DNA from: a virus
DNA length: 64,000 nucleotides
Direction: 5' to 3' (one strand)
IMG/VR virus record: IMGVR_UViG_3300042516_002090
Coordinates: 2,578 to 66,577 of that record
This document shows, piece after piece, positions 7,310 to 54,386 of the stretch (position 1 is the stretch's first letter; each line of letters opens with the position of its first letter). Position numbers and translations under genes: made by a program. Below the pieces are notes generated by a model. That model was given only the letters and a program-made list of their open reading frames with translations, was not told the origin of the DNA and did no database searches.

Positions 7310-7409
7310 AAAAAAAAAGCCCTCGTCTGGCGGACCGAGGGCAATTCTGAGTAAGGTTTTAATCTTACCTCCCACATTACACTGCCGCCAAACACTGTAA
7401 TGTGAGAAC
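7310..7409 (-). ncRNA. kissing-loop small RNA A
   Basis: Own promoter; 13-bp hairpin with loop UUUGGCGG, small GUAAG/CUUAC hairpin, terminator GCCCUCG-GUCCGCCAGA-CGAGGGC-U9. Confidence 0.75.
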
Positions 7410-7413
7410 GCAA

Positions 7414-7485
7414 CAAAAGTATGACTACAAAAATGTAGAAGTCAAAAAAAATAATTGCAATAAACCATCACACGAGTTATCTTTG
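7414..7485. promoter_or_regulatory. divergent Bacteroidota-type promoters
   Basis: - strand TTTG(7446-7443)-N21-TACTTTTG(7421-7414); + strand TTG(7455)-N20-TATCTTTG(7478-7485). Confidence 0.8.
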
Positions 7486-7489
7486 TAAT

Positions 7490-8362
7490 ATGAAAAAAGC
7501 AATATGTTGGTGGAGCGGTGGAATAACGTCTGCCGTGGCCTGTAAACTGGCGATAGATATGTTTGGTGTTGATAACTGCAAGGTTATCATGATTGACACC
7601 AAGAACGAGCATCCGGATACCTACCGATTCAAGGACGACTGCGCCCTGTGGTACGGAAAGGAAATAGAAACCATCACGGCAATCGGAAACAAGTACGAGA
7701 GCATACAAGACGTGTGGACTCAGCACAAGTCCCTCAACGTGGCAAGCGGGGCAATCTGCTCTACTATGCTCAAACGCAGAGTCAGGGAGAGGTTTCAGAA
7801 GGACGAGGACTACGACTACCAAGTGTTCGGCTTTGAGTTCGATAAGAAAGAATTCAACAGAGCTAACTCCCTTACGATGAATCACCCCAAGGCCAAGCCG
7901 ATATACCCATTACTCATGTTCGGGTACGACAAAGACCATTGCATCAAGATGGTGCAGAACGCCGGAATAGAAGTACCTGTAATGTACAAGATGGGCTTTA
8001 GGAACAACAACTGCTTTGGGACAGGGTGTGTACAGGGCGGGATAGGATACTGGCAGAAGATGAAGCGGGACTTCCCCGACAAGTTCGACGCGATGGCCGA
8101 CATGGAGTGGAAACTAACCGAGATGAAGGGAGAGCCAGTCACCATGCTCAAGGATCAGGGCAAGGACGCCAAGTCATCAGGCAACGTGCTTGTCTTCCTC
8201 AAGAAACACCCCGACTACCCAAACTTGAAATCCCTCGATGACATAGAGGGAAGGGAAGTTGAACCCCTTTTTGAATGCAATGGGTTCTGCGGAACGAACG
8301 ACCTCAACGAAAGAACATCAACCGAAAACGAAATCAATTACGGATTATTCTCAAACTTATAA
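7490..8362 (+). CDS. PAPS-reductase/PP-loop family protein
   Basis: WWSGGITS PP-loop, EHPDTYRF, GF-NNNC-xxx-GC, C-terminal CNGFC. Confidence 0.8.
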   Translation: MKKAICWWSGGITSAVACKLAIDMFGVDNCKVIMIDTKNEHPDTYRFKDDCALWYGKEIETITAIGNKYESIQDVWTQHKSLNVASGAICSTMLKRRVRERFQKDEDYDYQVFGFEFDKKEFNRANSLTMNHPKAKPIYPLLMFGYDKDHCIKMVQNAGIEVPVMYKMGFRNNNCFGTGCVQGGIGYWQKMKRDFPDKFDAMADMEWKLTEMKGEPVTMLKDQGKDAKSSGNVLVFLKKHPDYPNLKSLDDIEGREVEPLFECNGFCGTNDLNERTSTENEINYGLFSNL

Positions 8363-8364
8363 AA

Positions 8365-8628
8365 ATGAAAAAAACATCTTTAACAATTTTAATCGCGCTA
8401 TCCCTACTTGCCTGCAAGAAAGAGGAGCCGGAACCCGCACAACCAACACAACAATGCAACTGCGGTACTATCGCTAACGACGGCATCGACTCGGCCACCA
8501 ACTGCTATTGGTTGGAGATACGAAACGAATGCTCCGGCAACAAGAAGAAGTTCTGCTTCGACCAAGACATTTGGATGAACAACTATGTCGGCGACAGATT
8601 CTGTGTAACTAACGTATCATCTTGGTGA
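8365..8628 (+). CDS. lipoprotein
   Basis: MKK-hydrophobic-LLA-C-KKEE lipobox; Cys-rich mature domain. Confidence 0.75.
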   Translation: MKKTSLTILIALSLLACKKEEPEPAQPTQQCNCGTIANDGIDSATNCYWLEIRNECSGNKKKFCFDQDIWMNNYVGDRFCVTNVSSW

Positions 8629-8630
8629 AC

Positions 8631-8864
8631 ATGAAACTACCAATGTTTGACAAAGACAAGGCGAACCACGCCATCTACGGCGTAGTAATCTATGGACTAT
8701 GTTCCATCCTGATCACGCCTGTGTTCTCCTTAATCGCGGTGTTTACCACAGCGGTAGCAAAGGAGCTGTATGACAACTACAACGGCAAGAGATTCAGCTA
8801 TGGCGACATCATGGCGACCCAGGCCGGGGGTATAATCGGGTTCTTGATATCAATTATTAACTAA
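8631..8864 (+). CDS. small membrane protein (YfiM/VanZ-like)
   Basis: DKxxH...AKELYD...DIMAT..GG pattern with hydrophobic helices. Confidence 0.6.
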   Translation: MKLPMFDKDKANHAIYGVVIYGLCSILITPVFSLIAVFTTAVAKELYDNYNGKRFSYGDIMATQAGGIIGFLISIIN

Positions 8865-8877
8865 ACTGATTTGATAA

Positions 8878-9303
8878 ATGACAATAGCACAGCAGTTAAA
8901 AATTACGACATTTCCTTTTGAGATAAAGGATGAGAATGGCAATACAATCTATCGCGAATTCAGCAACAAGTATTGGGTAAAATCTGAATATGACCAAGAT
9001 GGGAATGAAATCTATGCCGAAGATAGTTATGGAGATATCACAGACAACCGCCCCAAGCCTGAACCTGTGCTGACTGCGGTAGAATGGTTGGAAAAGCAAT
9101 TGGATACAACACAATTGTATTGGCAAAAATATTATATAGACCAAGCCAAAGCAATGGAGAAGGAGCAGACTGAGGAGAATATGGCAAAGGCAATAACTTT
9201 CGGATGGGAATTGAGTCACCACCATAGACTTAAAGAACCGGAAGTGCTATTGAAAATGCAAAAAGATTTTATCACATCTGTTGTTGAAGGAGGTGACAAA
9301 TGA
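8878..9303 (+). CDS. hypothetical protein
   Basis: D-x-x-GN-x-IY repeats fused to a TAVEWL...AKAMEKEQ module. Confidence 0.75.
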   Translation: MTIAQQLKITTFPFEIKDENGNTIYREFSNKYWVKSEYDQDGNEIYAEDSYGDITDNRPKPEPVLTAVEWLEKQLDTTQLYWQKYYIDQAKAMEKEQTEENMAKAITFGWELSHHHRLKEPEVLLKMQKDFITSVVEGGDK

Positions 9304-9521
9304 AAAAGAAAGTAGACTTTTACAAGGTTCCCAAGAACGAATGGCAGATGCCCATCGAGAAGGGATACAAGATGGCCTGTTGCGACTGCGGACTCGTTCA
9401 CAGCATGGACTTCAAGGTAATTGATCCGGAGACCAACAAGGTCATTAAGAATGTGCGGACGATCCTCAGAGCAAGAAGGCACGAGACGTTGACCAAACAG
9501 CTCAGAAAAAACAAATACTGA
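9300..9521 (+). CDS. hypothetical Zn-binding protein
   Basis: CCDCGLVH motif. Confidence 0.75.
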   Translation: MKKKVDFYKVPKNEWQMPIEKGYKMACCDCGLVHSMDFKVIDPETNKVIKNVRTILRARRHETLTKQLRKNKY

Positions 9522-9527
9522 AAGAAC

Positions 9528-9824
9528 ATGAATAAGATAGAATGCCGAATCATCAAGACCACGCGCCCCGATGGCAGCGAATACTACACCATCGAACAAA
9601 AGAAGAAGCGGTTCTTTGGTGGCTACAAGTGGAAAGAAGCAGGGATTTGGGAGGGATGGATGAGAACCACCTATAAAACACTAGAAGATGCCCAAGCAGA
9701 TCTGTGTTGGTACGACGGGACAGAAACAAAAACAGAAGTCGTAAGTATGCCGCATAAAGTCGTTTATTACGACTACATGGCTACACCACCTAAAATCATC
9801 TACACCTATGAAAGCAATACTTGA
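9528..9824 (+). CDS. hypothetical protein
   Basis: 98-aa ORF in operon. Confidence 0.7.
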   Translation: MNKIECRIIKTTRPDGSEYYTIEQKKKRFFGGYKWKEAGIWEGWMRTTYKTLEDAQADLCWYDGTETKTEVVSMPHKVVYYDYMATPPKIIYTYESNT

Positions 9825-10023
9825 ATTCAATTTGCCGGAAGATCAGTACGAGTTCGACCTTGCAGTAAAGGCTCGTGAAATGTACCACGCGCTCAATGAC
9901 ATCAGGAACTACCTCAGGGCCAAGGTAAAGTACGAGGAGATGCCAGCCGACAAGTGGGATCTGTGCGATGAAATATACCAAGAGTTTTACAGGCTGCTAG
10001 AACAGAACAACATCAAACTGTGA
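9808..10023 (+). CDS. phage hypothetical protein
   Basis: MKAILEFNLPED motif. Confidence 0.75.
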   Translation: MKAILEFNLPEDQYEFDLAVKAREMYHALNDIRNYLRAKVKYEEMPADKWDLCDEIYQEFYRLLEQNNIKL

Positions 10024-10478
10024 ACCCCCTGTTGTGTACCATAGTCATCTGGTGCGGCATGCACTACGCCACGCCTACTTGGATGAAGAAGCAGGTTCCC
10101 ACATGGATGTGGTCAAGGTACGAGATATTCATCGTGCCATACGGAACGCCACTAGCCGTGGTTGATCCGGATGTTGACTACCAAACAACAGCCCTTGTGG
10201 GATTCAGCGCGGGTGGTATAGACGTGCTGAAGAACTACGACAGCAGATACGCGTTTGTAGGACTGATAGACCCATCAACAAGGCAGTCCTTCCTAAAGGG
10301 AACGTACAGAAACACGGCCATCGTATACAACCCGTCGGTATGGGGAAACATAAACAAGTCCCTCGTCCCCATGGCCGAAAGAATAAAGGCAACTGGAGGC
10401 AACGCCGAGAGGGTACAACTAAGTCATTCTGATATACCAAAATACTTTTTCAACAAACACTTTAAAAACTATGATTAA
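10020..10478 (+). CDS. minimal alpha/beta-hydrolase-like protein
   Basis: LVGFSAGG nucleophile elbow, GLIDPS, C-terminal His (LSHSDIP). Confidence 0.55.
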   Translation: MNPLLCTIVIWCGMHYATPTWMKKQVPTWMWSRYEIFIVPYGTPLAVVDPDVDYQTTALVGFSAGGIDVLKNYDSRYAFVGLIDPSTRQSFLKGTYRNTAIVYNPSVWGNINKSLVPMAERIKATGGNAERVQLSHSDIPKYFFNKHFKNYD

Positions 10479-10746
10479 AATCTCAGACAAGCCATCTAAG
10501 AAGGTGGAACACTTTACCGGAACAATAACCATGTCGTTCCCCGGCGTGGAAAATAAACTTTGGAACTTCACGGTCTTGCGTACAACGAACGGATCAACTA
10601 CCTTTGCTGTACAAGCAGACTATGAGCAATTCAAACAACACATCGACGACGAGAAATATGGCGAGTTCTACACGACGATACTCGAAGAAACCGTCAAGGC
10701 AAACTTGGCTAAAGAACAGGCAGAGTGGAAACCTGCCGAAAAATAA
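10471..10746 (+). CDS. hypothetical protein
   Basis: 91-aa ORF in operon. Confidence 0.7.
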   Translation: MIKISDKPSKKVEHFTGTITMSFPGVENKLWNFTVLRTTNGSTTFAVQADYEQFKQHIDDEKYGEFYTTILEETVKANLAKEQAEWKPAEK

Positions 10747-10754
10747 GATAGCGT

Positions 10755-11294
10755 ATGAAGGCGAGGAATAAGAAGTGCAGGATCTGTAGGCAGGAGTTTA
10801 TCCCTAAGTACAGCACGATGCAGGCAACGTGTGAGAACATCGAGTGCATGATAGCTTACTCCTCCAAGCAGAAAGAAAAGAAAACCAAGGCTGAGTTCAA
10901 GGCCATCAAGGAGCGGAACAAATCCGTTTCACAATGGAGGAAAGAACTACAACAGGTCTTCAATCAGTTTATCCGACTGAGGGATGCCAAGCGTGGGTGT
11001 ATAAGCTGTGGCAAGCCCTTGGTCGGTAAAACAGACGCAGGTCACTACTATTCCGTGGGGTCTTACCCAAACCTTAGGTTCCATGAGGACAACGTGCATG
11101 GCCAGTGTGTAAACTGCAACCAACACAAACACGGGAACCTATTAGAATACGCTATCGGGATTGAGAGGCGGATAGGCAAGGCCAGACTCGAAGAGTTGAA
11201 GTCCATGCGTAACGACCGACTCAGCCTCCCGCTTGACAAGATGAAGGAGTTGATATACCACTACAAGGACAAAGTAAAAGAACTAAAAAAATGA
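10755..11294 (+). CDS. ninG: NinG/Rap-family HNH endonuclease
   Basis: IRLRD..CISCG..DAGHY.SVG..LRFHEDNVHGQCVNCN. Confidence 0.9.
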   Translation: MKARNKKCRICRQEFIPKYSTMQATCENIECMIAYSSKQKEKKTKAEFKAIKERNKSVSQWRKELQQVFNQFIRLRDAKRGCISCGKPLVGKTDAGHYYSVGSYPNLRFHEDNVHGQCVNCNQHKHGNLLEYAIGIERRIGKARLEELKSMRNDRLSLPLDKMKELIYHYKDKVKELKK

Positions 11295-11342
11295 TTGATC
11301 CACCCACCTGGGAAGACCTAGGATATGCTAACTTTGAATAAC

Positions 11343-11741
11343 ATGGACAAGACCAAGAACATATATACTTTAATTATCCTTGCGCTGTCGGTTGTAATTC
11401 TGTGCGGGGTGTTCTTTCTAGTCTTCCACATGGGAGGTTTGAAGGAAAGCTCCGAGAACGAGGCTGTAGCCATAGACAGGCTGCATGAGATAACCGAAAA
11501 GTACGAGGCTAAGATGGACCAGAACATCATCATCGTACAGGAAACAAAGGCCGCCATCGACTCCCTGCTTGTTCAAGACGAGAAACAGTTCGTCATAGAA
11601 CAGGAGCAGATAGCCAAGTCTAAGATATTGATTTCACGAATACCCAAAATGCCAAATGACACGCTACAAAAACTTTACACGCTCTCTTGGAATTATCTTC
11701 TTAATGAGTATCGCTCAGGCCGTCTACAGCCAGCCGAGTGA
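11343..11741 (+). CDS. i-spanin-like membrane-anchored coiled-coil protein
   Basis: One N-terminal TM plus helical domain; overlaps next gene by 86 nt. Confidence 0.5.
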   Translation: MDKTKNIYTLIILALSVVILCGVFFLVFHMGGLKESSENEAVAIDRLHEITEKYEAKMDQNIIIVQETKAAIDSLLVQDEKQFVIEQEQIAKSKILISRIPKMPNDTLQKLYTLSWNYLLNEYRSGRLQPAE

Positions 11742-12072
11742 GGTTCCACAGTTGCCAAGAGAAGCCCAGGAAATCGTATCAGCAGCCGCTGAGACCATAC
11801 GGCAGAACAAGATGACCATTGAGTCACGTTCGATGCGTATACAACAGATGAAAGACCAGCTAGAGGCTGCCCAGATAGCCCTTGACTTGGCCATACAAAA
11901 CAACGACCTTTGCACAGAGGTAAGACAGAACCAACTCGCAGAGATCAGGTTCCTAAAGACTCAGTACCTTGACATGAAGCAGGAGATGAAGAAGGAGAGA
12001 AGGAGAAAGATATTCTGGAAGTGTGCAACGATTGTTACCTCCGCCACGACGTTATACTTTTTTGTGTTCTAG
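11656..12072 (+). CDS. spanin-partner-like exported coiled-coil protein
   Basis: Signal-peptide-like N-terminus, coiled coil, basic patch plus hydrophobic C-terminus. Confidence 0.5.
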   Translation: MTRYKNFTRSLGIIFLMSIAQAVYSQPSEVPQLPREAQEIVSAAAETIRQNKMTIESRSMRIQQMKDQLEAAQIALDLAIQNNDLCTEVRQNQLAEIRFLKTQYLDMKQEMKKERRRKIFWKCATIVTSATTLYFFVF

Positions 12073-12103
12073 TTGTTATAGTTGTTATAGTTGTTTATTG
12101 TTG

Positions 12104-12138
12104 AAAGAGGGCCATCCAACGGGGTGGCCTTTTTTTTA
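12104..12138 (+). terminator. intrinsic terminator at convergent junction
   Basis: GGCCATCC-aacg-GGGTGGCC followed by T8. Confidence 0.8.
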
Positions 12139-12720
12139 TCTAAACCTTGAAGATTTTTTCCACCTTGTTATGTGGGTGTTCTTCGATAGTGGGCGGATCT
12201 TGACATACACCCCATCCCTTGAGCGAGAGTCTCTCATGCCCTGCTCGTTGGTGTTCCCCTCGATGGTGCGGATAGAATACTCCCCAATACGATCTACAAT
12301 CCCGGTGTGGCCGATTCCCTTGAACCTTGACTTTCTAAAGTTAGAGTAGGTGAACGTGGCGACAAGCACGTCCCCTTCCTTGAACGACTGATAGAACCTT
12401 CCGTCTGTAAAGACTACATCGTTCTTGTTATACGCTGACGGAGACCAGCCAGTAATGCTGTTTTGGACACCGCACTCGTCAAGGATAGCCCTGACGAAGA
12501 ACGCGCACCATGCATAGCCGGGCTTCCACCCGACGTTAGCCATCATCTTCTGGAGGTCCCTGTCATTGAAACCCTGATTGTTACCTCCTTTCTCCCTTAC
12601 GCCTACAAAGGAAGCGGCTGTGGCACGGACGCAGTAACCGTCATTATCAGCCACAAGATTAGAAGGAAGGATAAGAATAATCCAAAGTAAACAACAAGGT
12701 ATAAAACGATTCTTTGCCAT
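12136..12720 (-). CDS. CHAP-domain endolysin with signal peptide
   Basis: AWCAFFV catalytic Cys, GHTGIV His, TIEGNT; hydrophobic N-terminus. Confidence 0.85.
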   Translation of the reverse strand: MAKNRFIPCCLLWIILILPSNLVADNDGYCVRATAASFVGVREKGGNNQGFNDRDLQKMMANVGWKPGYAWCAFFVRAILDECGVQNSITGWSPSAYNKNDVVFTDGRFYQSFKEGDVLVATFTYSNFRKSRFKGIGHTGIVDRIGEYSIRTIEGNTNEQGMRDSRSRDGVYVKIRPLSKNTHITRWKKSSRFR

Positions 12721-12995
12721 GGTGTAGATGAGTATTCGAGTTCCGCCTTGGCGTCTTTACTATAGAAGTAGTTCTGCAAACCACGGAAGTTAAAGAACGC
12801 CCCAAGGAACACCACAAAGTTAGCAAAAATCATGACAAGTGCGGCAAGTAAAACCTGCTGAATGTACTCCGTTGAGATCAGTCCGTCCCCGAAATACTCA
12901 GCGCTGTAAGAACCTGCGAGTAAAAACAAAAAGAAGGCGATTGGAATAGACCAAAGGCCGTCGAACATTTGAAGCTTGTTGATTATCTTTTTCAT
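12603..12995 (-). CDS. putative holin
   Basis: Three hydrophobic helices, overlaps endolysin start. Confidence 0.55.
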   Translation of the reverse strand: MKKIINKLQMFDGLWSIPIAFFLFLLAGSYSAEYFGDGLISTEYIQQVLLAALVMIFANFVVFLGAFFNFRGLQNYFYSKDAKAELEYSSTPWQRIVLYLVVYFGLFLSFLLILWLIMTVTASVPQPLPL

Positions 12996-14289: not shown

Positions 14290-14290
14290 G

Positions 14291-18248: not shown

Positions 18249-18322
18249 GGGCGAATATATATCCTCATGTTTAGTTATGCAAATTATTTTGCATTAATTA
18301 ATAAATGTCATATATTTGCATC

Positions 18323-18396
18323 GCAAGTTCGCGCACATCAGTGCAGTCGGGAGACGAGAACTTTGAGGGCGGGCTGATCACCGCCCTCTGTGTTTT
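18323..18396 (+). ncRNA. kissing-loop small RNA C
   Basis: TTTG-N19-TATATTTG promoter; 3-way junction then GAGGGCGG-GCUGAUCA-CCGCCCUC-UGUGUUUU. Confidence 0.65.
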
Positions 18397-18426
18397 CAGA
18401 AGGTATACAACTACAGAAGGGAGAAA

Positions 18427-18642
18427 TTACTTGGTAGAACGCTTCGCCTTGGCCTTCTTGTGGTGGCCATAAAGAACGACGATAGACACAGTGCATGCAA
18501 GGAGTAGAGACGCGATTCGGAAGGCCCACTCGGCCTGTTCCTGCCATGAAAGCACGGTAGCAAATGTAGTTAATAAAACTGACGCCGCTCCGTCTACGTA
18601 TCCTTGTCCTGTCATATCTGTATGATTGATATCATGCTGCAT
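18427..18642 (-). CDS. small two-TM holin-like protein
   Basis: Two hydrophobic helices, basic tail; TATATTTG box at 18658-18651. Confidence 0.55.
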   Translation of the reverse strand: MQHDINHTDMTGQGYVDGAASVLLTTFATVLSWQEQAEWAFRIASLLLACTVSIVVLYGHHKKAKAKRSTK

Positions 18643-44325: not shown

Positions 44326-44343
44326 AACGTATATTGGTTTTAT

Positions 44344-44378: not shown

Positions 44379-44391
44379 GAGTTTACAAAGA

Positions 44392-45780: not shown

Positions 45781-45799
45781 TTTTTTCTAAATTTTTTTA

Positions 45800-46864: not shown

Positions 46865-46869
46865 GTGTT

Positions 46870-49266
46870 TTATACTCTTCCTGTTATTTCGTTTCCTAAC
46901 TCAGCCTCAAGGGTTGCCTCAAGCTGTATCTCTTCAAGGGCTTGCTTGCCCTTCAATAATTGTACTTGGTAGTTTGCGTCGGCCTTAATCTTAGCGAGCT
47001 GTTGCTCCTTCATAAGCTCCATGTTGGCCATCTCGCGCTGTTTCATGATTTCGATCTGAGCAAGCTGCATGGCTGTTTGGCGCTTAGCTTCTTCGGCCAT
47101 CATAGCAGACTGCTGTTGACCTTGAATTGTTTGCTGAAGCATCATTTGAGCATTCTTCTGCTCGCGTTCACGCGCTTCTGTTTCCTCGGTTGCCATGAAC
47201 CAAAGTGCTTCATCTACATCACCGTTCTTAAGAAGTTGAGCAACACGCTCTACACTTGACGGAGTAAGAAGAACTGAACCATCCTTGGTTGGGATTTGAG
47301 ACATCTGAATAGCTCTTTGAAGTATTGCGCTCTTTTCTTTTTCGTTCGGAATAGACTTAACGCTAATTGCAAGCTGGTCTAATGACAATCCTTCAATCTC
47401 ATCCAAGGAGTCAATCATGTTTTTGCCAATTACCGCCTCGTAAAACTCGCGAATCTTAGGGTCGTATTCTATGTCTATACGAGCCTGGTGAATCATGCGC
47501 TCTCCTACCTTGCGTTTAAAGTCACGCTCTGAATCGCGAAGAGTCCAGTTTGCGTGGTTGCCGGCTTGGTAATCCTGCTCCATAACACCAACAAGTCTTT
47601 CCGCGCTTTGGTCGGGGCTAGCCGCCATTGCATCCGGAATACCCATGGTATCCTTAATCATCATCTGCAAGTTGGCTATCTGCTGAATCCATTCAGTTCC
47701 CTGTGGGCCTAATCCGTTGTCCATCTCGGTCAATGGCTGGGACACATACTTTCCCGTTGCTGCGTTGAACTTAGTGGCAACAACCTGAATACCATTCTGA
47801 CGATGTACGTGTACAAGGTCAAACAAGTCGTATTCTACTCCGCCAATCTTGATGTTGGCGGCCTCACCTACGTCAATTCGATAACCCTTAGGAGCAGCAG
47901 CCCATACAGCGGCGCGAAGTTTAAGGATGGCGAACATTAAGTCGTCAAGCAATCCTCTTACGCTACGTGTGGGGGACTGTCCTGGAATACGGTCGATAAC
48001 GTAAGAACTCATCGGTGTGAGTCCCTTCTGCATCTGGTTAGGCTTCTTCTTCCATTCGTAGATTCGGTCAAGACCGGTTCCCGAGATGATGTATGAACCT
48101 TCGTACCAATAGTTGCAGGCAACCTCTTCGTATGTGTCGTTAGGATTCTTTTTCTTTTCCTCTACAGGCTTGTTGTTTCGAAGGAATGAGGCATAACCCT
48201 GCTTGTTCTTTCTCTCAACATATTGCTTGTAGTCAGTGGAAAGGTATTCAAACTTTAGGACGTAAACCTTGAAGTCCATCCAAACCCATCGGTTTGATGT
48301 CTCGTCCTTTCTCTCAAAAGCCCACACGGGAATCATGGAGGCATTCGTCTGATAAGGAACGTAAGACTTAGCCATTGACTGAATCTGCTTCTCGTCAAAT
48401 CCTGCCTCAACTAGCTTAGGGAATATCGACTGAATGGTCTCAATCTCAATGTGGCCAATAGCTACAGGCTCGTCTTCATTGTCTTCGTTCCAAAGCATGA
48501 TAAGACGAGCGGGGTCTATATATTGAACCTTTACTTGTCCTGTGATTGGGTCGTTGTAAATCTTAGCAGACCGGAAGTGGTAATCAATAGCGTCGCGATT
48601 TATATCAGTACGCATTGAACCCCAATTAGATGAACGAAAGCCTGACTCAGCAAGTTTCTCCAAGGCAACCTCATATTTAGTCTTGAAAAAACCAAGGCGA
48701 TCCGCCATGTCGAGCATGGTCTCGTCCTTTGGCACAAACGGAAGTTTAAACTCCGGAAGGCCAAGCTCACGCATTAACGGATTTGTAAAATTCGCTTTAG
48801 CGTAAATATCATTTTTTTCGCGCTTCTTTTTATTGATGATATTTTTATCAAGAGAAATACAATCAAGTTTGTAATCGTTATCAGAAAGAATTGATAAAAG
48901 AACATTGGTCAGTTTTTTCATTGGAGAGAAAATGTCGTAGCTTATGTTAGCCATCGCCTTTCTCTGTGCCGTGTTCATGCCCTTTGTTGACTGAGAGGTC
49001 TCGTTGTTTGACCTTGTCTTAGTTCCAATAGGGGATCCGTTAGTAAACCAGTTCTTATATTTCTCCACCGATTGAATTCCAGAGCCGTAGTTTCGGGTCT
49101 CTTGCATCTCAGGGAGCTGCGTGTATGAAAAGTACGTACCCCCTGTGCAAAAACGAGAATACAATGCTCTTCCGCATCGTAAGCCAAATTCGGGCTTTAG
49201 TTTTTCTATCTCTGGCACGTTATCGCTTGGAAACAAATAGTTTCCAGCCATTTGAGGTAGTATCAT
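46870..49266 (-). CDS. portal protein
   Basis: 798 aa after TerL; Q/M/A-rich C-terminal barrel typical of podoviral portals. Confidence 0.85.
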   Translation of the reverse strand: MILPQMAGNYLFPSDNVPEIEKLKPEFGLRCGRALYSRFCTGGTYFSYTQLPEMQETRNYGSGIQSVEKYKNWFTNGSPIGTKTRSNNETSQSTKGMNTAQRKAMANISYDIFSPMKKLTNVLLSILSDNDYKLDCISLDKNIINKKKREKNDIYAKANFTNPLMRELGLPEFKLPFVPKDETMLDMADRLGFFKTKYEVALEKLAESGFRSSNWGSMRTDINRDAIDYHFRSAKIYNDPITGQVKVQYIDPARLIMLWNEDNEDEPVAIGHIEIETIQSIFPKLVEAGFDEKQIQSMAKSYVPYQTNASMIPVWAFERKDETSNRWVWMDFKVYVLKFEYLSTDYKQYVERKNKQGYASFLRNNKPVEEKKKNPNDTYEEVACNYWYEGSYIISGTGLDRIYEWKKKPNQMQKGLTPMSSYVIDRIPGQSPTRSVRGLLDDLMFAILKLRAAVWAAAPKGYRIDVGEAANIKIGGVEYDLFDLVHVHRQNGIQVVATKFNAATGKYVSQPLTEMDNGLGPQGTEWIQQIANLQMMIKDTMGIPDAMAASPDQSAERLVGVMEQDYQAGNHANWTLRDSERDFKRKVGERMIHQARIDIEYDPKIREFYEAVIGKNMIDSLDEIEGLSLDQLAISVKSIPNEKEKSAILQRAIQMSQIPTKDGSVLLTPSSVERVAQLLKNGDVDEALWFMATEETEAREREQKNAQMMLQQTIQGQQQSAMMAEEAKRQTAMQLAQIEIMKQREMANMELMKEQQLAKIKADANYQVQLLKGKQALEEIQLEATLEAELGNEITGRV

Positions 49267-49272
49267 ATCTTA

Positions 49273-49300
49273 CAAATTTAATAAAACAACTACAAATGTA
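49273..49300 (-). promoter_or_regulatory. tandem -7 boxes before portal
   Basis: TACATTTG (49300-49293) and TAAATTTG (49280-49273). Confidence 0.6.
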
Positions 49301-49330
49301 TGAAAATTTATCATAAATGGTTGAAAACAA

Positions 49331-51793
49331 TCAATCTATTTCGAAAAACGAAAATCCTCCCTGTACCTCTATCGGTTGGTAAGCCTCCTTGTAAAGATCT
49401 GGCATCCGGCTCTTTATGGCTCTCATACACCACCCCGTTGCGGCACACAAGTCATGGTTTGTCAAGTCATCAATGCCCCTCATCTGACTCCATTCCTCGA
49501 CTATCTCCCACATTTTCACGTACTTAACATTGTTGTTAAAGAAGGTCATGATGTCTCCGGCCATCTCGTTTTTTTCGGCTTCCCCCGCCCAAACACCTGG
49601 TCTTGAGTCCTGCTTGCCGTCTGATCCCAAGTCCTTCAGAAGGTATCCGTCAAATCCGTTATCTCTAAAGTATTCGACAAGGGCCTCTCCATCGGGCCAT
49701 TCTGGGTAAACGTATGCCCCAAGGAATACAGCCGCCTTTAACCACTCTTCGTGATACTCAGCCTTGTCTTCGGTCTGTCTGTTGTAAATCAGAATCCAGT
49801 CGTTACTTACCCACTCGCTTCTAGGCTTGGTGTCGGGGTCCGCCTGACTATCTCTTTTGTAAAACACAGCGGCAGCAGCGTTTGACTTCTTTTTACCTAC
49901 AGTGTTTCGCTTGTGGAACTTTACAGGGTCACAGCAAAGGAAGAATCTATTCATTACCGATGGATCGGGAGCGTAAATAGGTCCCCTATTCTTTGGTTGA
50001 ATGTAGCCCTCTTCTGCTGTAACAACGGTCTTCCTATTACGCATCTCATTTGGAGGAAGGTAACTCATGGTCCAACTTCCCTTGGGGTCGTTTTCTACAT
50101 AAACATCCCCACCAAACTTGTCACCCATCCACTTGAAGTTGATTTTTGTTGTAATAGGTGTACGAGAAAACTTGAGTTCCGATATACGGTCGCGCATCTT
50201 CTCGATAGGCATACCCATGTCCTTAGGGATTACCGCGAACGCCTGCTTCCAACTCATCGGGAAGTTCTGCTGTAACTTAATCAGCTTTTGCCACTCCCTC
50301 TTGCGCTCGAAGTAGTCTGCCTGGTTCAAAAGATACGACTTAGCTCCCTTGGTAATCCACTTGCCCTCGTTAGACATCACAGGTTCCTTAGGGTCGTCGA
50401 TAATGCTTGCCCCATACTCGTCGATGTATCCCTCTACCGCGTAGTAACCCGGCAAGAAGAAGTTGATGAGTCCCGATGGTGTAGTTCCATTCTCATTACG
50501 ATCAGAGAAGTGCGAGTCGTTGGCAATGTCAAAGAACTGCGCTCCACCCCCTGTGTCCATGTCACCTACTGTAGATGGCATGATGCAGAACCCACGAATG
50601 TTTTCCCCTCGTTCGATAGCGGGTTTCATCGTGTTGTACCACCACGTCGGGATGTTTTGGTCCGCCGCCTTCGCATCCGTTTTCTTCGCTGGCTCGTCAC
50701 GGTAGACAAAAGCGATTTCCGCTTCACCATCCGCCGCTTTCTCCGTCGAAGGGAGCGGCGTGATAAAGCACTCCATTTGTTCTGGGATGATTCCTGCCCT
50801 TGCTGCTGATGCGATTGCTCCTTCATACTGGAAACGCAAGCCCTCCTTTGCCTCTATTCGTCCGCGATAGTATGGGCGAAAGAAGAAAGGAAGCTTGCTT
50901 ACAGGTGTTTGAATTTGTTTTATGAATATCTTGTTTACCGCCTGGTCCTCATTCATCGCCTGGATGATAAAGGTTTGGTCGGGCATATTGAGCGTTCCCC
51001 ACGTGCAGAAGCAACAAGCAATAGCTGTCTTAGCAATACGTCGCCCGGATACGAAGTTTATCCCATGCACAGTGCGCTTTCCTTTCTTGACCGTGATGTT
51101 TACGTTTGGTTCAACGAAGTACTCCACACCCATTTCGTTCATTTCGTCAACCACGTTCTTCACGTCTTGGTTTGAGTACTTTGTTTTTACTACCGCGTCT
51201 TCCCTGTAGATAATCTTGTGCTTATAGAACGCATCCTCTGTAGTGTAGGCATACATGAACAGGTGGAACATTTTCCTTTGGTAGTCCCTGTAGTCAGGTC
51301 TGTTGTTATTCTTACCAAAGTTCTTTACCGTCCAAAAGTTCAAGAAGAAATAGTTCGCCCCGTTTATGTAGGTTGGTTTCCCTTTAATGAAACACCAATA
51401 GCCAACGTATCTACGCTTTATCTGGAGCTTGATCCACTCAATCTCCATAGCGTAATACTTCTGATTCGATTCTATCTCCTCGTAAATATCTTCTAACCTT
51501 ACGTCACCGACCTCTTTGTACTTGGACTTGTTGGTTGCGTGTTTCTTATTAAAAACGACCTCGTAAATAAGTCTTATCTTTTCAGGAGTTTCCTGATAAG
51601 TGAACTTTTGGTCTTTTGGATTCATTCCATACCCATCGACGTAAGTAAGCGCTTCTTCCCTAGTGACCTCTCTTTTTAGGTGGTGTGAATACCACTCCTC
51701 AAGGCGCGGAAGCGGAATGCGGATTGTATCCAACTCGTCGTCATCCTCGTGGAATGAAACATACTTATCCTCCTCATCGTATTCGTACTTCAT
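49331..51793 (-). CDS. terL: terminase large subunit
   Basis: GRRIAKT Walker A, FVYRDE Walker B, PST, FLCCDP and HDLCAA nuclease motifs; ATGA-coupled start. Confidence 0.9.
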   Translation of the reverse strand: MKYEYDEEDKYVSFHEDDDELDTIRIPLPRLEEWYSHHLKREVTREEALTYVDGYGMNPKDQKFTYQETPEKIRLIYEVVFNKKHATNKSKYKEVGDVRLEDIYEEIESNQKYYAMEIEWIKLQIKRRYVGYWCFIKGKPTYINGANYFFLNFWTVKNFGKNNNRPDYRDYQRKMFHLFMYAYTTEDAFYKHKIIYREDAVVKTKYSNQDVKNVVDEMNEMGVEYFVEPNVNITVKKGKRTVHGINFVSGRRIAKTAIACCFCTWGTLNMPDQTFIIQAMNEDQAVNKIFIKQIQTPVSKLPFFFRPYYRGRIEAKEGLRFQYEGAIASAARAGIIPEQMECFITPLPSTEKAADGEAEIAFVYRDEPAKKTDAKAADQNIPTWWYNTMKPAIERGENIRGFCIMPSTVGDMDTGGGAQFFDIANDSHFSDRNENGTTPSGLINFFLPGYYAVEGYIDEYGASIIDDPKEPVMSNEGKWITKGAKSYLLNQADYFERKREWQKLIKLQQNFPMSWKQAFAVIPKDMGMPIEKMRDRISELKFSRTPITTKINFKWMGDKFGGDVYVENDPKGSWTMSYLPPNEMRNRKTVVTAEEGYIQPKNRGPIYAPDPSVMNRFFLCCDPVKFHKRNTVGKKKSNAAAAVFYKRDSQADPDTKPRSEWVSNDWILIYNRQTEDKAEYHEEWLKAAVFLGAYVYPEWPDGEALVEYFRDNGFDGYLLKDLGSDGKQDSRPGVWAGEAEKNEMAGDIMTFFNNNVKYVKMWEIVEEWSQMRGIDDLTNHDLCAATGWCMRAIKSRMPDLYKEAYQPIEVQGGFSFFEID

Positions 51794-52443
51794 GGTATTA
51801 CCTCCGGGAATATCTCTTTCTTTTCGCGCCAAATCCTTGCATAGTGTTCGGGCTGTATTCCAAGGTTCTCAGCGCGTACAGAGAATGTAATCGCTTTCTG
51901 TAGTGTAATGCTAACCTCGTCGCTCATGATTCGAGTACGAGCATCCACAAGTGTCTGGCGCCAACTCTCAAGACCTGCTTGGAAGTTTTTATCGTCGTTC
52001 GATCTGTCAACTGGCTGAGTCAATAGCGCCCTCTGCAACGCGGCTATTCGGATGTCTGCCGTACTCATGATTGAGTAGTCCTCCGAGCATTGCAGGCGGG
52101 TAAACGTGATGTACCGCTCCACCGCCCAGTCCACATTCATCATGCAGAGCTGAGCGTACCCATCCTCCGAATCCGTGTCATCAACCATGATATTCAGCTT
52201 GTTCAACGTGTATCGTTTGCGCTGGTTGATGTCCGGATACGCGTCTTTAACGGGCGTACCTGGAGCGAACATATATATGAGATATCGAACAACCTTGTCG
52301 GCGCTAACCCCCTCAGGAAGATCGTCAGACCTGTCCAGAATATGGGCTTGACTAGCCAGGTCCGAGAAACGGTAAATCACCGACTCGTCATCCGGGATGC
52401 CTTCAATGTTGTACGATATTTTACTAAAGTCTAGTTTTATCAT
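51790..52443 (-). CDS. putative terminase small subunit
   Basis: Helical 217 aa, coupled directly upstream of TerL. Confidence 0.5.
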   Translation of the reverse strand: MIKLDFSKISYNIEGIPDDESVIYRFSDLASQAHILDRSDDLPEGVSADKVVRYLIYMFAPGTPVKDAYPDINQRKRYTLNKLNIMVDDTDSEDGYAQLCMMNVDWAVERYITFTRLQCSEDYSIMSTADIRIAALQRALLTQPVDRSNDDKNFQAGLESWRQTLVDARTRIMSDEVSITLQKAITFSVRAENLGIQPEHYARIWREKKEIFPEVIP

Positions 52444-53243
52444 TCTTCGATTGCTAATATGACCCTAGGCTGAAACCTAACGTAATCACTTGACTCGGCC
52501 ATTGTTGAGTCTAACTTCACTGAGAAGTGTTTCTTAATACAAACCACGTCTCCTTTCTTTACCTCTGTGTTTGTCCATACATCGTCGGCAACATACTTGG
52601 GCATCTTTGCAGGTGGGACTTCTACTTGTACTCTTTCTGTTTCTGAATCCAACAGAAAAATACTTCCTGCCTTTCTATCATTAGGTAAAACCTTTCCAAT
52701 GATGTATCCGTTCATGCTCTTAATCTCTCCGTTCCTCTTCGCGGCATAAATACATTCAGAAGGAACAAGCACATATCTTTTTCCGTCCTTCTCAAACCCT
52801 CCGTCGCCTTCTGTGATAAAGTTTCTCGTGTAGGTAGAATCAAACCAAACCTCATCGCCTGGCTCTCCGTCAAACTCGCAAGAAAAGTCCCAGTTCTTTG
52901 TGGTAGAACCTTTTTCAGGCTTCTTTACAAGCACCCCGCGCCTAACAGCCTGAGTGGCCCTAATATCTTCCTTGTTGGGGTCAACCTCCTTCTTTTGTTC
53001 TCCAGCCATTCTCATGTATTCAGACATAGCCCTCTTGTCCTTGTAGTTACTTTTCTTCATAGACTTTACAAGAGAATTCATGTCGCTTATACTTCCAGAA
53101 TCGGTCATACCCTTTAGGCTGTTCACTAACTTCAATGTTCCCCCATTAAAAGATATCTCATCTTCGGTCCAAGAATGTATCTCGACCAAGCAGTCACCGT
53201 CTATAAGCCTTAACTGGTCTATGTCAACGTCTTCAAAGTTCAT
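52440..53243 (-). CDS. tandem GroES-like domain protein
   Basis: GDEVWF...YVLVPSECIYA and KAGSIFL...EVKKGDVVC motifs. Confidence 0.65.
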   Translation of the reverse strand: MNFEDVDIDQLRLIDGDCLVEIHSWTEDEISFNGGTLKLVNSLKGMTDSGSISDMNSLVKSMKKSNYKDKRAMSEYMRMAGEQKKEVDPNKEDIRATQAVRRGVLVKKPEKGSTTKNWDFSCEFDGEPGDEVWFDSTYTRNFITEGDGGFEKDGKRYVLVPSECIYAAKRNGEIKSMNGYIIGKVLPNDRKAGSIFLLDSETERVQVEVPPAKMPKYVADDVWTNTEVKKGDVVCIKKHFSVKLDSTMAESSDYVRFQPRVILAIEE

Positions 53244-53491
53244 TAGAGTATCTTCTTATAAATTTCAAATAGTTGCTTTTGGGTTTCAAAGTTCTTCTTG
53301 CCAACCGGCGTTCGCTTCTTTATCTTGTTCACACCACGGCGGAGTGACGAGTATGTTCCAAACAGATTGATTGCGTCCCAGTTACTCATCAGCTTCTCTA
53401 CATCCTTCATGTCTGTATTCTCCCGCTCGATGTAGTACTCATACACCTCTATAATCTTGAGGTAGTTACCCTTTGTTTTTGTCCTTATCAT
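53243..53491 (-). CDS. hypothetical protein
   Basis: 82-aa ORF in operon. Confidence 0.7.
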   Translation of the reverse strand: MIRTKTKGNYLKIIEVYEYYIERENTDMKDVEKLMSNWDAINLFGTYSSLRRGVNKIKKRTPVGKKNFETQKQLFEIYKKIL

Positions 53492-53768
53492 AATGCTCTT
53501 TCAGTTTTTGAAAGTATGTTGACCGCTTTATTCTGGTCTCAACCTGTGTTTTACCCATATCCTCTAGGGTGTCCTTGTATCTTACAATAGCCTTTTCGAC
53601 CTCGTCTAAATCGTTTGATGTTATGTTAGGATTGCAGTAAAGCAAGTTTCTCCGCGCAGATGTAGCCATCGGAGTGAATATTTTCATCACCTCATAAATC
53701 TCAATCTTCTCGTCAAGCATCCGGTTGACGATTGATATGGCTCTTTTCCAGTTTTCTGTCTTATTCAT
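53466..53768 (-). CDS. hypothetical protein
   Basis: ATG 53768 overlapping upstream stop region. Confidence 0.7.
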   Translation of the reverse strand: MNKTENWKRAISIVNRMLDEKIEIYEVMKIFTPMATSARRNLLYCNPNITSNDLDEVEKAIVRYKDTLEDMGKTQVETRIKRSTYFQKLKEHYDKDKNKG

Positions 53769-53976
53769 ATAAAAATGCAATGTGTCGTTCATGTACAGAG
53801 TAAACTTCAATGCCTTGCAGTTCCACCTTCTCTATTTTTCCCATAACACAAGCCTTCTGCCCAATCTGTAGTTCTACTCCGTTTCCTACCGCCGTTATGG
53901 TTACGTCTATTTGCTTTGGCTGTTTTTTATCGATCGTCACAAAAACACGCCCGTCTGGTGGTCTCAAGTTCGTCAT
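53761..53976 (-). CDS. GroES-like protein lacking mobile loop
   Basis: LRPPDGRVFV, ITAVGNG, LQIGQ, VELQGIEVYSVHERHI align to GroES strands. Confidence 0.65.
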   Translation of the reverse strand: MTNLRPPDGRVFVTIDKKQPKQIDVTITAVGNGVELQIGQKACVMGKIEKVELQGIEVYSVHERHIAFLYE

Positions 53977-53980
53977 GTTG

Positions 53981-54048
53981 CAAATATACAAACAAATAAC
54001 ATAGTGTCAAGTTCTTGCTTGTAAACAATACTATTTTGCGTAAATTTG
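53981..54048. promoter_or_regulatory. divergent promoters between morphogenesis and replication modules
   Basis: - strand TTG-N19-TATATTTG-CAAC-ATG; + strand TTG-N19-TAAATTTG-CGCT-ATG. Confidence 0.8.
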
Positions 54049-54052
54049 CGCT

Positions 54053-54244
54053 ATGTTTATCCTCTCAATTGTCTTAACTGTTGTATCTATCTATCTGATG
54101 ATCAAGAACTCCATATATGGCTGTGGCAAAAGATGTTACAAGACCCGAAAGGAGGCTCAGGATCATTGTGATCAGGACCAACAAGTGTTCATGTGTTGGG
54201 ACTGCGAAAAGTGGCACATAAAAAATAATGAAGAAAATACTTGA
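54053..54244 (+). CDS. small membrane-anchored Zn-finger protein
   Basis: N-terminal TM; CGKRCY and CWDCEKWH. Confidence 0.7.
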   Translation: MFILSIVLTVVSIYLMIKNSIYGCGKRCYKTRKEAQDHCDQDQQVFMCWDCEKWHIKNNEENT

Positions 54245-54276
54245 CAGCCACGCGTGTTTGTTTTATGTTTGTCAAA

Positions 54277-54386
54277 ATATTTCACCCCTCGTTTGCTACG
54301 AACCACAGTAAACTAGGGTTGGAAGCTAAGTAAAAACTTACTTATCAACCTAAAAGCTCGCAAAGTGGTTCTTGCGAGCTTTTTTT
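54277..54386 (+). ncRNA. kissing-loop leader RNA B of replication operon
   Basis: TTG-N20-TATGTTTG promoter; hairpin loop ACGAACCAC; UAAGUAA/UUACUUA hairpin; terminator loop AGUGGUUC and U7. Confidence 0.8.

What the first reader, a model, noticed from the sequence alone, without database searches (positions are those of the whole stretch)
7310..54386. Family of promoter-driven RNAs whose 5' loop kisses their own terminator loop
Seen: three loci with different sequences share one design: consensus Bacteroidota promoter, 5' hairpin, small auxiliary hairpin, terminator whose loop is complementary to the 5' loop. A (7409-7310, -): UUUGGCGG/CCGCCAGA, 8 bp with one GU. B (54277-54386): GAACCAC/GUGGUUC, 7 bp. 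C (18323-18396): AUCAGU/GCUGAU, 6 bp with one GU. A and B also share GUAA..AAAAC.UUAC in the middle hairpin. Different loop keys with preserved pairing are natural covariation. Inference: a set of orthogonal RNA switches (attenuation or antisense immunity, conceptually like P4 CI or P1 C4 RNAs). I cannot assign them to a named family.
Basis: partly seen in the sequence, partly recalled or inferred. Interest (0 to 1): 0.85.

Follow-up and report, generated by a model that had tools for sequence, protein, structure and literature searches.

The report
Self-kissing phage replication leader RNAs
Two of the three loci belong to an undescribed family of about 100-nt phage RNAs whose first hairpin loop and terminator loop always match each other through many different 7-10-base "keys", one copy sitting directly in front of the phage's DNA-replication genes, which points to an RNA lock-and-key control of replication; the third locus is not a member.

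Summary
A (7413-7310, -) and B (54275-54388, +) are real and related. Each has a Bacteroidota-type promoter, a long 5' hairpin, a small variable hairpin and a strong intrinsic terminator. The apical loops of the first and last hairpins are complementary.

Within the window alone the match is not beyond chance. Comparison settles it. In relatives from IMG/VR I found 16 different loop keys (10 B-type, 6 A-type), each matched by 7-10 base pairs. None of 58 B-type and 18 A-type loci is mismatched, although stems, the middle hairpin and downstream genes are reshuffled.

B-type leaders end 4-17 nt before the start codon of a replication-initiator gene, followed in the window by primase/helicase. Replication genes therefore need read-through of this terminator. 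A is a paralogue heading a non-coding unit.

C fails: its complementarity is lost in relatives.

Rfam has no match, even at E <= 10. The function is inferred, not shown: a key-addressed attenuator, working like P4 CI or IsrK but not a member of either. No expression data were available.

The parts
54241..54271 (+). B promoter: TTGACA (54241-54246), 17-nt spacer, TATGTTTG (54264-54271)
   Evidence: Read. TAnnTTTG is present upstream of 19 of 19 family representatives and TTGAC at the -33/-35 place in 11 of 19. The box is conserved in the alignment of 38 unique homologues.
54280..54324 (+). B 5' hairpin (16 pairs, 9-nt loop); key 1 GAACCAC at 54300-54306
   Evidence: Fold. The helix has 16 pairs, 96.8% of cells paired, and 5 pairs with changes on both sides across 36 distinct rows.
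54327..54344 (+). B small middle hairpin (variable in sequence, hairpin kept)
   Evidence: 71% of cells paired in the MAFFT alignment, 3 pairs with double changes; 5-9 pairs in all 17 representatives folded.
54352..54386 (+). B intrinsic terminator: 12-pair stem 54352-54383, loop with key 2 GUGGUUC at 54365-54371, T-run 54380-54386
   Evidence: The helix has 99.5% of cells paired and 4 pairs with double changes. The loop-loop helix has 7 pairs, 100% paired in 36 of 36 distinct rows, with 2 pairs changed on both sides in 16 rows.
54392..55114 (+). Replication-initiation protein gene (240 aa, wHTH), ATG 5 nt after the T-run
   Evidence: ORF. PHROG phrog_270 'replication initiation protein' E 2.2e-26. 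Pfam HTH_36 E 2e-9.
55083..57029 (+). DNA primase/helicase gene (648 aa), second gene of the unit headed by B
   Evidence: phrog_18375 E 5.5e-54. Used to fetch 70 related loci.
7414..7445 (-). A promoter: TTGACT (7445-7440), 18-nt spacer, TACTTTTG (7421-7414)
   Evidence: Nearly invariant in 15 unique A-type sequences.
7370..7407 (-). A 5' hairpin (12-14 pairs); key 1 UUUGGCGG at 7392-7385
   Evidence: Stem conserved in A-type relatives.
7350..7369 (-). A middle hairpin GGUAAG-AUUAAAAC-CUUAC
   Evidence: Replaced by other hairpins in relatives that carry the same or other keys. Nearly identical to the middle hairpin of the B-type leaders L065 and L067.
7310..7342 (-). A intrinsic terminator T1: stem GCCCUCG/CGAGGGC 7342-7319, 10-nt loop with key 2 CCGCCAGA at 7333-7326, T-run 7318-7310
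   Evidence: Stem invariant while the loop varies and stays matched in 18 of 18 A-type loci.
7204..7309 (-). Conserved non-coding stretch X after T1, ending in a second terminator-like hairpin T2 (7232-7214 plus T-rich tail)
   Evidence: Conserved in most A-type loci. T2 is listed. The reading frame in it varies from 41 to 125 aa with frame changes, so it is not coding. It holds a 5-pair hairpin with loop GUGA, GCGA or GAGA (read).
18311..18396 (+). Locus C: TATATTTG box (18311-18318), 4-pair hairpin, 3-pair hairpin, terminator-like hairpin 18365-18388. A conserved small unit but NOT a member of the kissing family
   Evidence: Relatives. Loop complementarity is not kept. No R1 or R2 hit.

Best explanation
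A and B are two paralogous members of an undescribed family of 102-121-nt RNAs in an uncultivated group of about 66-kb tailed phages, most likely of Flavobacteriia or other Bacteroidota.

Each unit is a portable cassette with four parts: a host-type promoter (TTGAC, 17-19 nt, TAnnTTTG); a long 5' hairpin with a 8-14-nt loop; a small hairpin of free sequence; and a strong intrinsic terminator with an unusually large 8-15-nt loop.

Shown: the two apical loops form a 7-10-bp helix (a kissing or pseudoknot contact). Its sequence, the 'key', differs between phages but is always matched.

Shown: the B-type cassette is the leader of the replication operon. Its U-tract ends a few nucleotides before the start codon of the replication-initiator gene, so transcripts from this promoter reach the replication genes only by reading through the terminator.

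Inferred: the key-to-key contact is what sets or senses this termination decision. Because the only partner of each key is the other loop of the same kind of RNA, the terminated short RNA can also address nascent or read-through leaders that carry the same key. That would give autoregulation of replication-gene expression that is specific to one key type. It would work like P4 CI RNA or IsrK, but without an antisense gene.

The A-type cassette applies the same device, with its own orthogonal key, to another unit. In this window that unit is the non-coding stretch X. In a relative it is a double winged-helix protein gene.

The direction of the effect (more or less termination) and cis versus trans action are not known.
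For: Structure and pairing
- Folds are better than shuffles (z -4.1 for A, -5.2 for B).
- In 38 unique B homologues, the loop-loop helix is 100% paired in 36 of 36 distinct rows, with two doubly compensated positions.
- More distant leaders found with models R1 and R2 carry entirely different, perfectly matched keys.
- Cognate Watson-Crick runs are 6-10 in 14 representatives. The 182 non-cognate combinations are mostly 3-4, with a maximum of 7.
- Of 84 terminators in 80 loci sharing A's stem, the 15 with the A scaffold all have 8-9 bp once G.U is counted (14 by exact match, L361 6 exact). The other 69 have at most 6.

Selection for matching
- There are no mismatched combinations among 58 B-type loci, although the key label changes at least 15 times on the tree of the downstream 2.7 kb.
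- Three 5'-stem backgrounds each occur with both main alleles.
- In A-type loci the middle hairpin, which lies between the two keys, is reshuffled independently, yet 18 of 18 are matched.

RNA on this strand
- G.U pairs are common in the stems, for example UG:20/CG:16 and GU:20/GC:16.
- A promoter box is present in 19 of 19 representatives, and U-tracts are present.

Leader role
- The ORF starts 4-17 nt after the model match in 11 of 11 B-type lineages.
- The product is a replication initiator in the window and in 6 of 7 diverse relatives.
- An A-type cassette in L357 is followed at once by a 239-aa double wHTH protein gene.

No other partner
- Between allele-1 and allele-2 genomes only the leader's own two loops swap; no third site does.
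- There is no conserved promoter box on the opposite strand.

Precedents read
- P4 CI RNA prevents expression of replication genes by premature termination through pairing with seqA and seqC.
- The short IsrK isoform acts in trans on the read-through isoform (PMC4825925: abstract and the passages found).
Against: - No expression data: no RNA run was listed.
- Nothing shows that the pairing changes termination. A 7-10-bp loop-loop helix is compatible with a closed terminator hairpin, so it may simply shape or stabilise the RNA.
- The terminators look strong on their own.
- Transcripts starting further upstream (63-aa ORF at 54053-54244) also run into the leader.
- In the window, A has no protein gene behind it.
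- Only two alleles account for 51 of 58 close B-type loci, so keys are not changing fast there.
- The middle hairpin is as variable as the keys, so high variability alone does not prove diversifying selection.
- No integrase was found, so prophage-type immunity is unlikely.
- Covariation cannot tell intramolecular from intermolecular pairing.
- Within the window alone the complementarity is not significant.
Confidence: 0.55

Rival explanations
1. The contact is purely architectural. The loop-loop helix forms within one molecule and only locks a compact, nuclease-resistant fold of a leader or small RNA whose function lies elsewhere (protein binding, RNA stability, translation of the adjacent start codon). 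Keys differ between phages by compensatory drift and carry no specificity.
For: - Every RNA is matched to itself, never cross-wired to the other cassette of the same genome.
- No third target site was found.
- 5' hairpin length (13-18 pairs) is of the same order as terminator stem plus key (15-21), which would allow side-by-side packing (the geometry is my inference).
- The middle hairpin is equally variable.
Against: - Keys of 7-10 contiguous Watson-Crick pairs are longer than intramolecular tertiary contacts usually need (recalled general knowledge).
- Between close relatives, whole keys differ while the surrounding stems are identical: L025 versus L045, and the window versus L003.
- No half-changed intermediates were seen among 58 loci, and two discrete alleles persist on many backgrounds.
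- This reading does not explain why the device sits on a terminator directly before replication genes.
Confidence: 0.3
2. The signal acts at the DNA level. The inverted 7-9-bp repeats and the hairpins are part of a replication origin or operator next to the initiator gene, read by a protein or as single-stranded DNA, not as RNA.
For: The location is directly upstream of the replication-initiator gene. Matched half-sites of an inverted repeat would also covary.
Against: - G.U pairs are frequent in the stems and present in A's key. On the other strand or in duplex DNA these would be A-C mismatches.
- Promoter boxes are present in 19 of 19 representatives, and U-tracts lie on one strand only.
- Half-sites sit 50-65 nt apart, each in the loop of its own hairpin.
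- Keys are independent of the initiator type: the same initiator type occurs with keys GAACCAC and GUAAGGC, and different initiator types share one key.
- A-type copies are not next to an initiator.
Confidence: 0.05
3. The RNA multimerises like phi29 pRNA. The 5' loop of one molecule pairs with the terminator loop of the next, building dimers or rings that serve in a machine such as packaging or replication.
For: The loops are complementary but not palindromic, so head-to-tail association is possible. In pRNA the loop pairs also covary between phages (recalled, not read here).
Against: - No Rfam pRNA hit, even at E <= 10.
- The cassette heads a replication operon or a regulator gene, with the start codon just after the terminator.
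- Two orthogonal copies in one genome are not expected for one machine.
- Cultured relatives lack it.
Confidence: 0.05
4. Chance. Ordinary promoter-proximal hairpins and terminators happen to share a short complement.
For: In the window alone the excess is not significant: non-cognate controls reach 7 or more in 11 of 342. For locus C this is the best reading.
Against: For A and B there are 16 different keys, all matched; 0 mismatches in 58 plus 18 loci; and controls of at most 6 in 69 unrelated terminators with the same stem.
Confidence: 0.02

Closest known systems
Satellite phage P4 immunity: CI RNA with seqA/seqB/seqC (passage in PMC4825925; primary papers cited there were not read)
   Same: RNA-RNA complementarity between segments of the untranslated leader of the replication operon. 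The outcome in P4 is premature transcription termination before the replication genes. The RNA comes from the same transcript that it regulates.
   Different: - P4 is a temperate satellite of enterobacteria and its CI RNA is cut out by processing.
- Here the RNA ends at its own intrinsic terminator, and one partner is that terminator's loop.
- No integrase is present.
- There is no sequence or Rfam relationship.
- The effect on termination is untested.
IsrK of the Gifsy-1 prophage (PMC4825925; abstract and found passages read)
   Same: One promoter gives a short terminated isoform and a read-through isoform, and the short RNA acts in trans on the long one. The authors call IsrK a structural homologue of P4 seqA RNA.
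   Different: IsrK switches on translation of a downstream ORF through alternative structures. No loop-to-terminator-loop key is described in what I read, and it has no link to replication-initiator genes. The hosts are enterobacteria.
Countertranscript-driven attenuation and kissing-loop copy control of plasmid rep genes (pT181, pIP501/pAMbeta1, R1 CopA/CopT, ColE1 RNA I/II). Recalled; only search listings were seen.
   Same: A terminator or structured leader lies directly before a rep gene. Recognition is by loop-loop kissing of 6-7 nt. Loop sequence defines specificity (incompatibility) groups.
   Different: Those regulators are antisense RNAs from the opposite strand, so complementarity is automatic. 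Here no conserved opposite-strand promoter exists, and both partners lie on the same strand about 50-65 nt apart, so matching must be kept by paired changes.
P1/P7 C4 antisense RNA and Rfam C4, c4-2, c4-a1b1 families
   Same: A phage RNA whose loops pair with sites in the same operon transcript.
   Different: There is no match to any Rfam model at gathering score or at E <= 10. The C4 targets lie downstream at a ribosome-binding site (recalled), not in a terminator loop.
phi29 prohead RNA (pRNA)
   Same: Two loops of one RNA are complementary to each other and covary between related phages (recalled).
   Different: In pRNA the pairing is 4 bp, intermolecular, and part of the packaging motor. 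Here it is 7-10 bp, on a leader/terminator cassette, with no Rfam hit.

Membership tests
New family defined here (promoter, 5' hairpin, middle hairpin, terminator, matched loops) | Covariance-model match to leaders of the replication operon | tested here: met
   B: 115.7-120.1 bits. A: 29.6 bits, E 8.5e-4 with R2, which was built without A-type sequences. C: no hit at E <= 10.
New family defined here | 5' loop and terminator loop complementary over 7 or more pairs, kept through sequence change in relatives | tested here: met
   A and B lineages: 16 keys, 0 mismatches in 58 + 18 loci. C: not met.
Bacteroidota housekeeping-sigma promoter | -7 box TAnnTTTG, with TTG or TTTG near -33 (consensus recalled) | tested here: met
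   TAnnTTTG upstream of 19 of 19 representatives; TTGAC 16-20 nt upstream in 11 of 19. Activity not testable here.
Intrinsic (Rho-independent) terminator | G+C-rich hairpin followed directly by a U-run | tested here: met
   B: 12-pair stem plus U7. A: 7-pair G+C stem plus U9. Termination itself not testable here.
Rfam C4 / c4-2 / c4-a1b1 and every other Rfam 15 family (including pRNA and riboswitches) | Match to the family covariance model | tested here: not met
   0 matches in the window at gathering score and at E <= 10. In 10 homologue loci, only two tRNAs in L066.
P4-type CI RNA immunity | Leader of the replication operon holds mutually complementary segments | tested here: met
   Keys lie in the leader of the initiator and primase/helicase operon.
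P4-type CI RNA immunity | Temperate or satellite life style, with immunity of a lysogen | tested here: not met
   No PF00589 integrase in the 66,577-nt record. Three of five relatives searched carry direct terminal repeats. Other recombinase families were not searched.
P4-type CI RNA immunity | Pairing causes premature termination; the RNA is released by processing | not testable with these tools
   Needs transcription assays and RNA end mapping.
Plasmid-type countertranscript attenuation (pT181 / pIP501) | Antisense RNA gene on the opposite strand of the rep leader | tested here: not met
   A -7-like box on the opposite strand within 300 nt occurs in only 5 of 15 leaders, at differing places. 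Opposite-strand model hits are weak mirror images of the 5' hairpin.
Plasmid-type countertranscript attenuation (pT181 / pIP501) | Terminator immediately upstream of the rep gene | tested here: met
   The ORF starts 4-17 nt after the leader in 11 of 11 lineages. It is an initiator in the window and in 6 of 7 relatives.
Riboswitch | Conserved ligand-binding core nucleotides in loops and junctions | tested here: not met
   Loops, middle hairpin and linkers are the most variable parts; only the stems and promoter are conserved.

The most novel reading that the evidence does not exclude
The keys are addresses. The terminated leader RNA acts in trans on nascent leaders that carry the same key and decides termination at the head of the replication operon. 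A purely RNA-encoded, sense-strand lock-and-key would then define replication 'incompatibility' or superinfection-exclusion groups among co-infecting virulent Bacteroidota phages. Extra cassettes such as A would extend the same code to further units. The two discrete alleles kept on many recombinant backgrounds would be balanced specificity types.
Probability: 0.25. Interest if true: 0.9.

Novelty: new variant of a known kind. Interest (0 to 1): 0.8.

Why it matters
It adds a well-supported structured RNA family, with a long-range loop-loop helix proven by many independent key changes, to phages of Bacteroidota, where phage gene regulation is little studied.

It places an RNA-RNA recognition device on an intrinsic terminator directly in front of replication genes. 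This is the plasmid and P4 logic of RNA copy or immunity control, but achieved without an antisense gene.

The natural set of at least 16 mutually non-matching keys on one scaffold makes testable how RNA specificity types arise and are kept matched under recombination. It is also a ready-made library of orthogonal terminator switches for synthetic biology in Bacteroidota.

Tried and rejected
In the 80 loci returned, model R2 found no family member at the key sites. The result is noise, so the question whether another phage uses A's key on a replication leader stays open.
- Scan for A's middle-hairpin motif: 40 stretches. Only the two contigs already known (L243 = contig of L067, L269 = contig of L065) are members.
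- My pattern for the shared middle-hairpin motif matched A only, not B.
- L077 and L174, weak R2 hits, were folded and are not members: 4-nt terminator loops and no key.
- Primase scan of genome contigs: no relative found, so there is no host or prophage information.
- Megablast of 20 kb against cultured phages: no match. By protein, the nearest are phages of Flavobacteriia hosts at under 40% identity. Two of them (Maribacter phage Panino and MW202828) have no R2 hit above 9.6 bits with filters off.
- RNA runs: no RNA holder was listed.
- Third-site test and opposite-strand promoter test: nothing found.
- The ORF in stretch X downstream of A was rejected as coding: lengths of 41-125 aa with frame changes.
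- The genome search with R2 on the own record did not list A, and on five relatives it missed the A-type copy of G001 that the terminator pattern later found. That route under-counts A-type copies.
- Literature: searches returned no paper describing a leader whose 5' loop pairs with its own terminator loop in phages. From PMC11979758 and PMC6478431 I saw only the listing and the start of the abstract. Supplements were not consulted. The library lacks most subscription-journal papers, so 'not described' rests on these searches and on Rfam only.
- I did not run R-scape, and I did not make a family-wide alignment in register for the pseudoknot. The family-wide counts are from my scripts.

Full report
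**What the window is.** The window is 64,000 of the 66,577 nt of one IMG/VR virus record. It holds a long minus-strand block of structural genes, including portal and large terminase. Plus-strand blocks carry replication, recombination and nucleotide genes. There are no tRNAs and no tyrosine integrase. Megablast finds no close cultured relative. By protein, the primase/helicase is under 40% identical to phages of Flavobacterium, Maribacter, Cellulophaga and Tenacibaculum. Three of five related complete records have direct terminal repeats.

**The observation in the window.**
- Both fold into three hairpins well below shuffled controls (z -4.1 and -5.2).
- The stated complements lie in the apical loops of the first and last hairpins: A has 8 pairs including one G.U, and B has 7 Watson-Crick pairs. 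Duplex energies are -15.5 and -11.9 kcal/mol.
- C is weaker. Its 5' hairpin has 4 pairs and a 4-nt loop, and two of the six proposed pairs use stem nucleotides.
- A crude test inside the window does not reach significance. Of 19 terminator-like sites only A and B have an exact complement of 6 or more upstream. Non-cognate combinations reach 7 or more in 11 of 342 and 6 or more in 28 of 342.
- The window alone therefore could not have settled the matter.

**B in relatives.**
- The primase/helicase brought in 70 related loci. Fifty held a blastn match to B, giving 38 unique sequences.
- The 5' loop and the terminator loop occur as two alleles, GAACCAC with GUGGUUC and GAGCAAC with GUUGCUC, linked without exception.
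- On the alignment, the loop-loop helix is paired in 100% of cells of 36 distinct rows. Two pairs are changed on both sides in 16 rows. The three hairpins also covary (14 pairs with double changes overall; 93.8% of cells paired, against 40-52% when partners are slid).
- Frequent G.U pairs (UG:20/CG:16, GU:20/GC:16 and others) show that the constraint is on RNA of this strand.
- Three different 5'-stem backgrounds each carry both alleles.
- On a tree of the downstream 2.7 kb (55 rows), the key label needs at least 15 changes. Among the 58 loci scanned for four keys, no mismatched combination exists.

**More distant leaders.**
- A covariance model of B (R1) and a second one from 21 hits (R2) found leaders in front of more diverged replication modules.
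- Folding showed entirely different keys, each perfectly matched:
  - GUAAGGC/GCCUUAC
  - GUGGAGU/ACUCCAC
  - GUACGAG/CUCGUAC
  - GGACUAG/CUAGUCC
  - GUCGAGAG/CUCUCGAC
  - GUAGAGC/GCUCUAC
  - GUAAGGAA/UUCCUUAC
  - GGUAGGAGU/ACUCCUACC
- L025 and L045 share an identical 44-nt stretch up to the terminator loop and then differ in the key.
- With the two alleles above, this makes ten B-type keys.

**A is a paralogue.**
- R2, built without A-type sequences, hits A at 29.6 bits, E 8.5e-4 in 498 kb.
- A's middle hairpin is nearly identical to that of L065 and L067.
- A-type copies in L072, L233 and L234 carry other keys.
- A scan for A's invariant terminator stem with any 9-11-nt loop gave 84 matches in 80 loci. 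Fifteen have the A scaffold, and all have 8-9 bp of loop-loop complement. L361 shares the window's G.U-containing key. The other 69 have at most 6.
- In all there are 18 A-type loci (15 unique) with six terminator-loop keys.
- The middle hairpin, which lies between the two keys, is combined freely with different keys. One key occurs with three middle hairpins, and one middle hairpin with three keys. Yet the two keys always match. Recombination therefore breaks between the keys, and mismatched products are not seen. I read this as selection.
- Across 14 representatives, cognate Watson-Crick runs are 6-10, and the 182 non-cognate combinations are mostly 3-4. A and B of this window do not match each other.

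**C is not a member.** Five relatives keep a nearly invariant unit with the terminator loop GCUGAUCA. The small 5' loop changes without compensation, so the longest pairing run falls to 4 (L279) and 3 (L280). L278 keeps six pairs only by three G.U. L281 lacks the element. Neither model finds C. C is a conserved small promoter-plus-terminator unit of another kind.

**Context and what follows from it.**
- All 19 representatives tested have TAnnTTTG upstream, and 11 also have TTGAC 16-20 nt before it.
- B-type leaders are followed within 4-17 nt by an ORF in 11 of 11 lineages.
- In the window this ORF is a replication-initiation protein (phrog_270, E 2.2e-26), followed by primase/helicase. In 6 of 7 diverse relatives it is also an initiator or DnaD/O-like protein, of non-orthologous types.
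- No space for another promoter exists between the U-tract and the ATG. RNA from this promoter therefore reaches the replication genes only by read-through. This step is shown by the sequence.
- Keys are independent of the initiator type.
- A-type cassettes precede one of three things:
  - a conserved non-coding stretch X with a second terminator-like hairpin (the window and most others);
  - an 82-84-aa ORF;
  - in L357, a 239-aa protein with two winged-helix domains, whose ATG directly follows the U-tract.
- The cassette is thus a portable head of transcription units.

**Partner search.**
- Comparing two allele-2 genomes with three allele-1 genomes, the only homologous sites where one key is replaced by the other are the leader's own two loops.
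- A conserved promoter on the opposite strand is absent.
- The keys therefore recognise each other, either within a molecule or between copies of the same leader.

**Mechanism.**
- Shown: the architecture, the pairing, its maintenance under recombination, and the position before replication genes.
- Inferred: the contact governs or senses termination, and the short terminated RNA can address leaders of the same key. This is the logic of P4 CI RNA and of IsrK (PMC4825925, passages and abstract).
- The length of the helices (7-10 contiguous pairs), the whole-key differences between near-identical scaffolds, and the two discrete alleles kept on many backgrounds lean towards a specificity function. 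The equally variable middle hairpin and the strict self-matching fit a purely architectural contact as well.
- I put 0.95 on the pairing being real, about 0.55 on the attenuator reading as stated, and about 0.25 on key-specific trans action.

**Comparison with known systems.**
- No Rfam 15 family matches the window at gathering score or at E <= 10, or ten homologue loci at gathering score, where only two tRNAs in L066 appear.
- It is not a member of C4, pRNA or a riboswitch class. It lacks the antisense gene of plasmid attenuation systems and the temperate setting of P4.
- Five literature searches found no description of such a leader.
- I rate it a new variant of a known kind: RNA-RNA loop recognition coupled to a terminator before replication genes.

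Noticed in passing
window 18311-18396 (+) and 18420-18635 (-): Locus C is a small unit, almost invariant across relatives that are 77-95% identical in the flanks. Its 'U-tract' GUUUUC can pair with GAGAAC upstream to extend the hairpin. It lies antisense to the 3' region of an unlisted small minus-strand ORF (about 70 aa, hydrophobic) that has its own TATATTTG box. A minus-strand terminator-like site sits at 18209-18188.
   Followed up: partly
window 7204-7309 (-): Stretch X after A's terminator is conserved in most A-type loci. It is non-coding and holds a 5-pair hairpin whose tetraloop varies as GUGA, GCGA or GAGA. It ends in a second terminator-like hairpin (7232-7214), convergent with the NinB/Orf-like gene at 6676-7110. 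Its function is unknown.
   Followed up: partly
L357 2071-2790; L316 2323-2571; L352 8116-8364; L234 1242-1496: The A-type cassette is placed before different cargo in relatives: a 239-aa double winged-helix protein (Pfam MarR, 2.5e-7), or an 82-84-aa ORF with no family match.
   Followed up: partly
L025, L045, L052, L064, L066, L067, L107 (ORFs listed): The same leader family precedes at least five non-orthologous replication-initiator types. The junction between leader and gene therefore looks like a recombination seam.
   Followed up: partly
window 54053-54244 (+): A 63-aa ORF with an N-terminal hydrophobic stretch and CxxxC/CxxC motifs ends inside B's promoter. Its 3' end is conserved in nearly all B homologues. 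No Pfam match.
   Followed up: no
window 54218-54329 (-) and the same place in many relatives: R1 and R2 give weak minus-strand hits (13-29 bits) over the promoter and 5' hairpin. They look like mirror images of the hairpin. No conserved opposite-strand promoter was found.
   Followed up: partly
L066 2705-2793 and 2897-3007: Two tRNA genes lie directly upstream of the leader in this relative.
   Followed up: no
window 6676-7110 / 7490-8362 versus L072 2552-2986 / 3001-3873: The PAPS-reductase-like gene lies on opposite sides of the A cassette in the window and in L072, so this region is mosaic.
   Followed up: no
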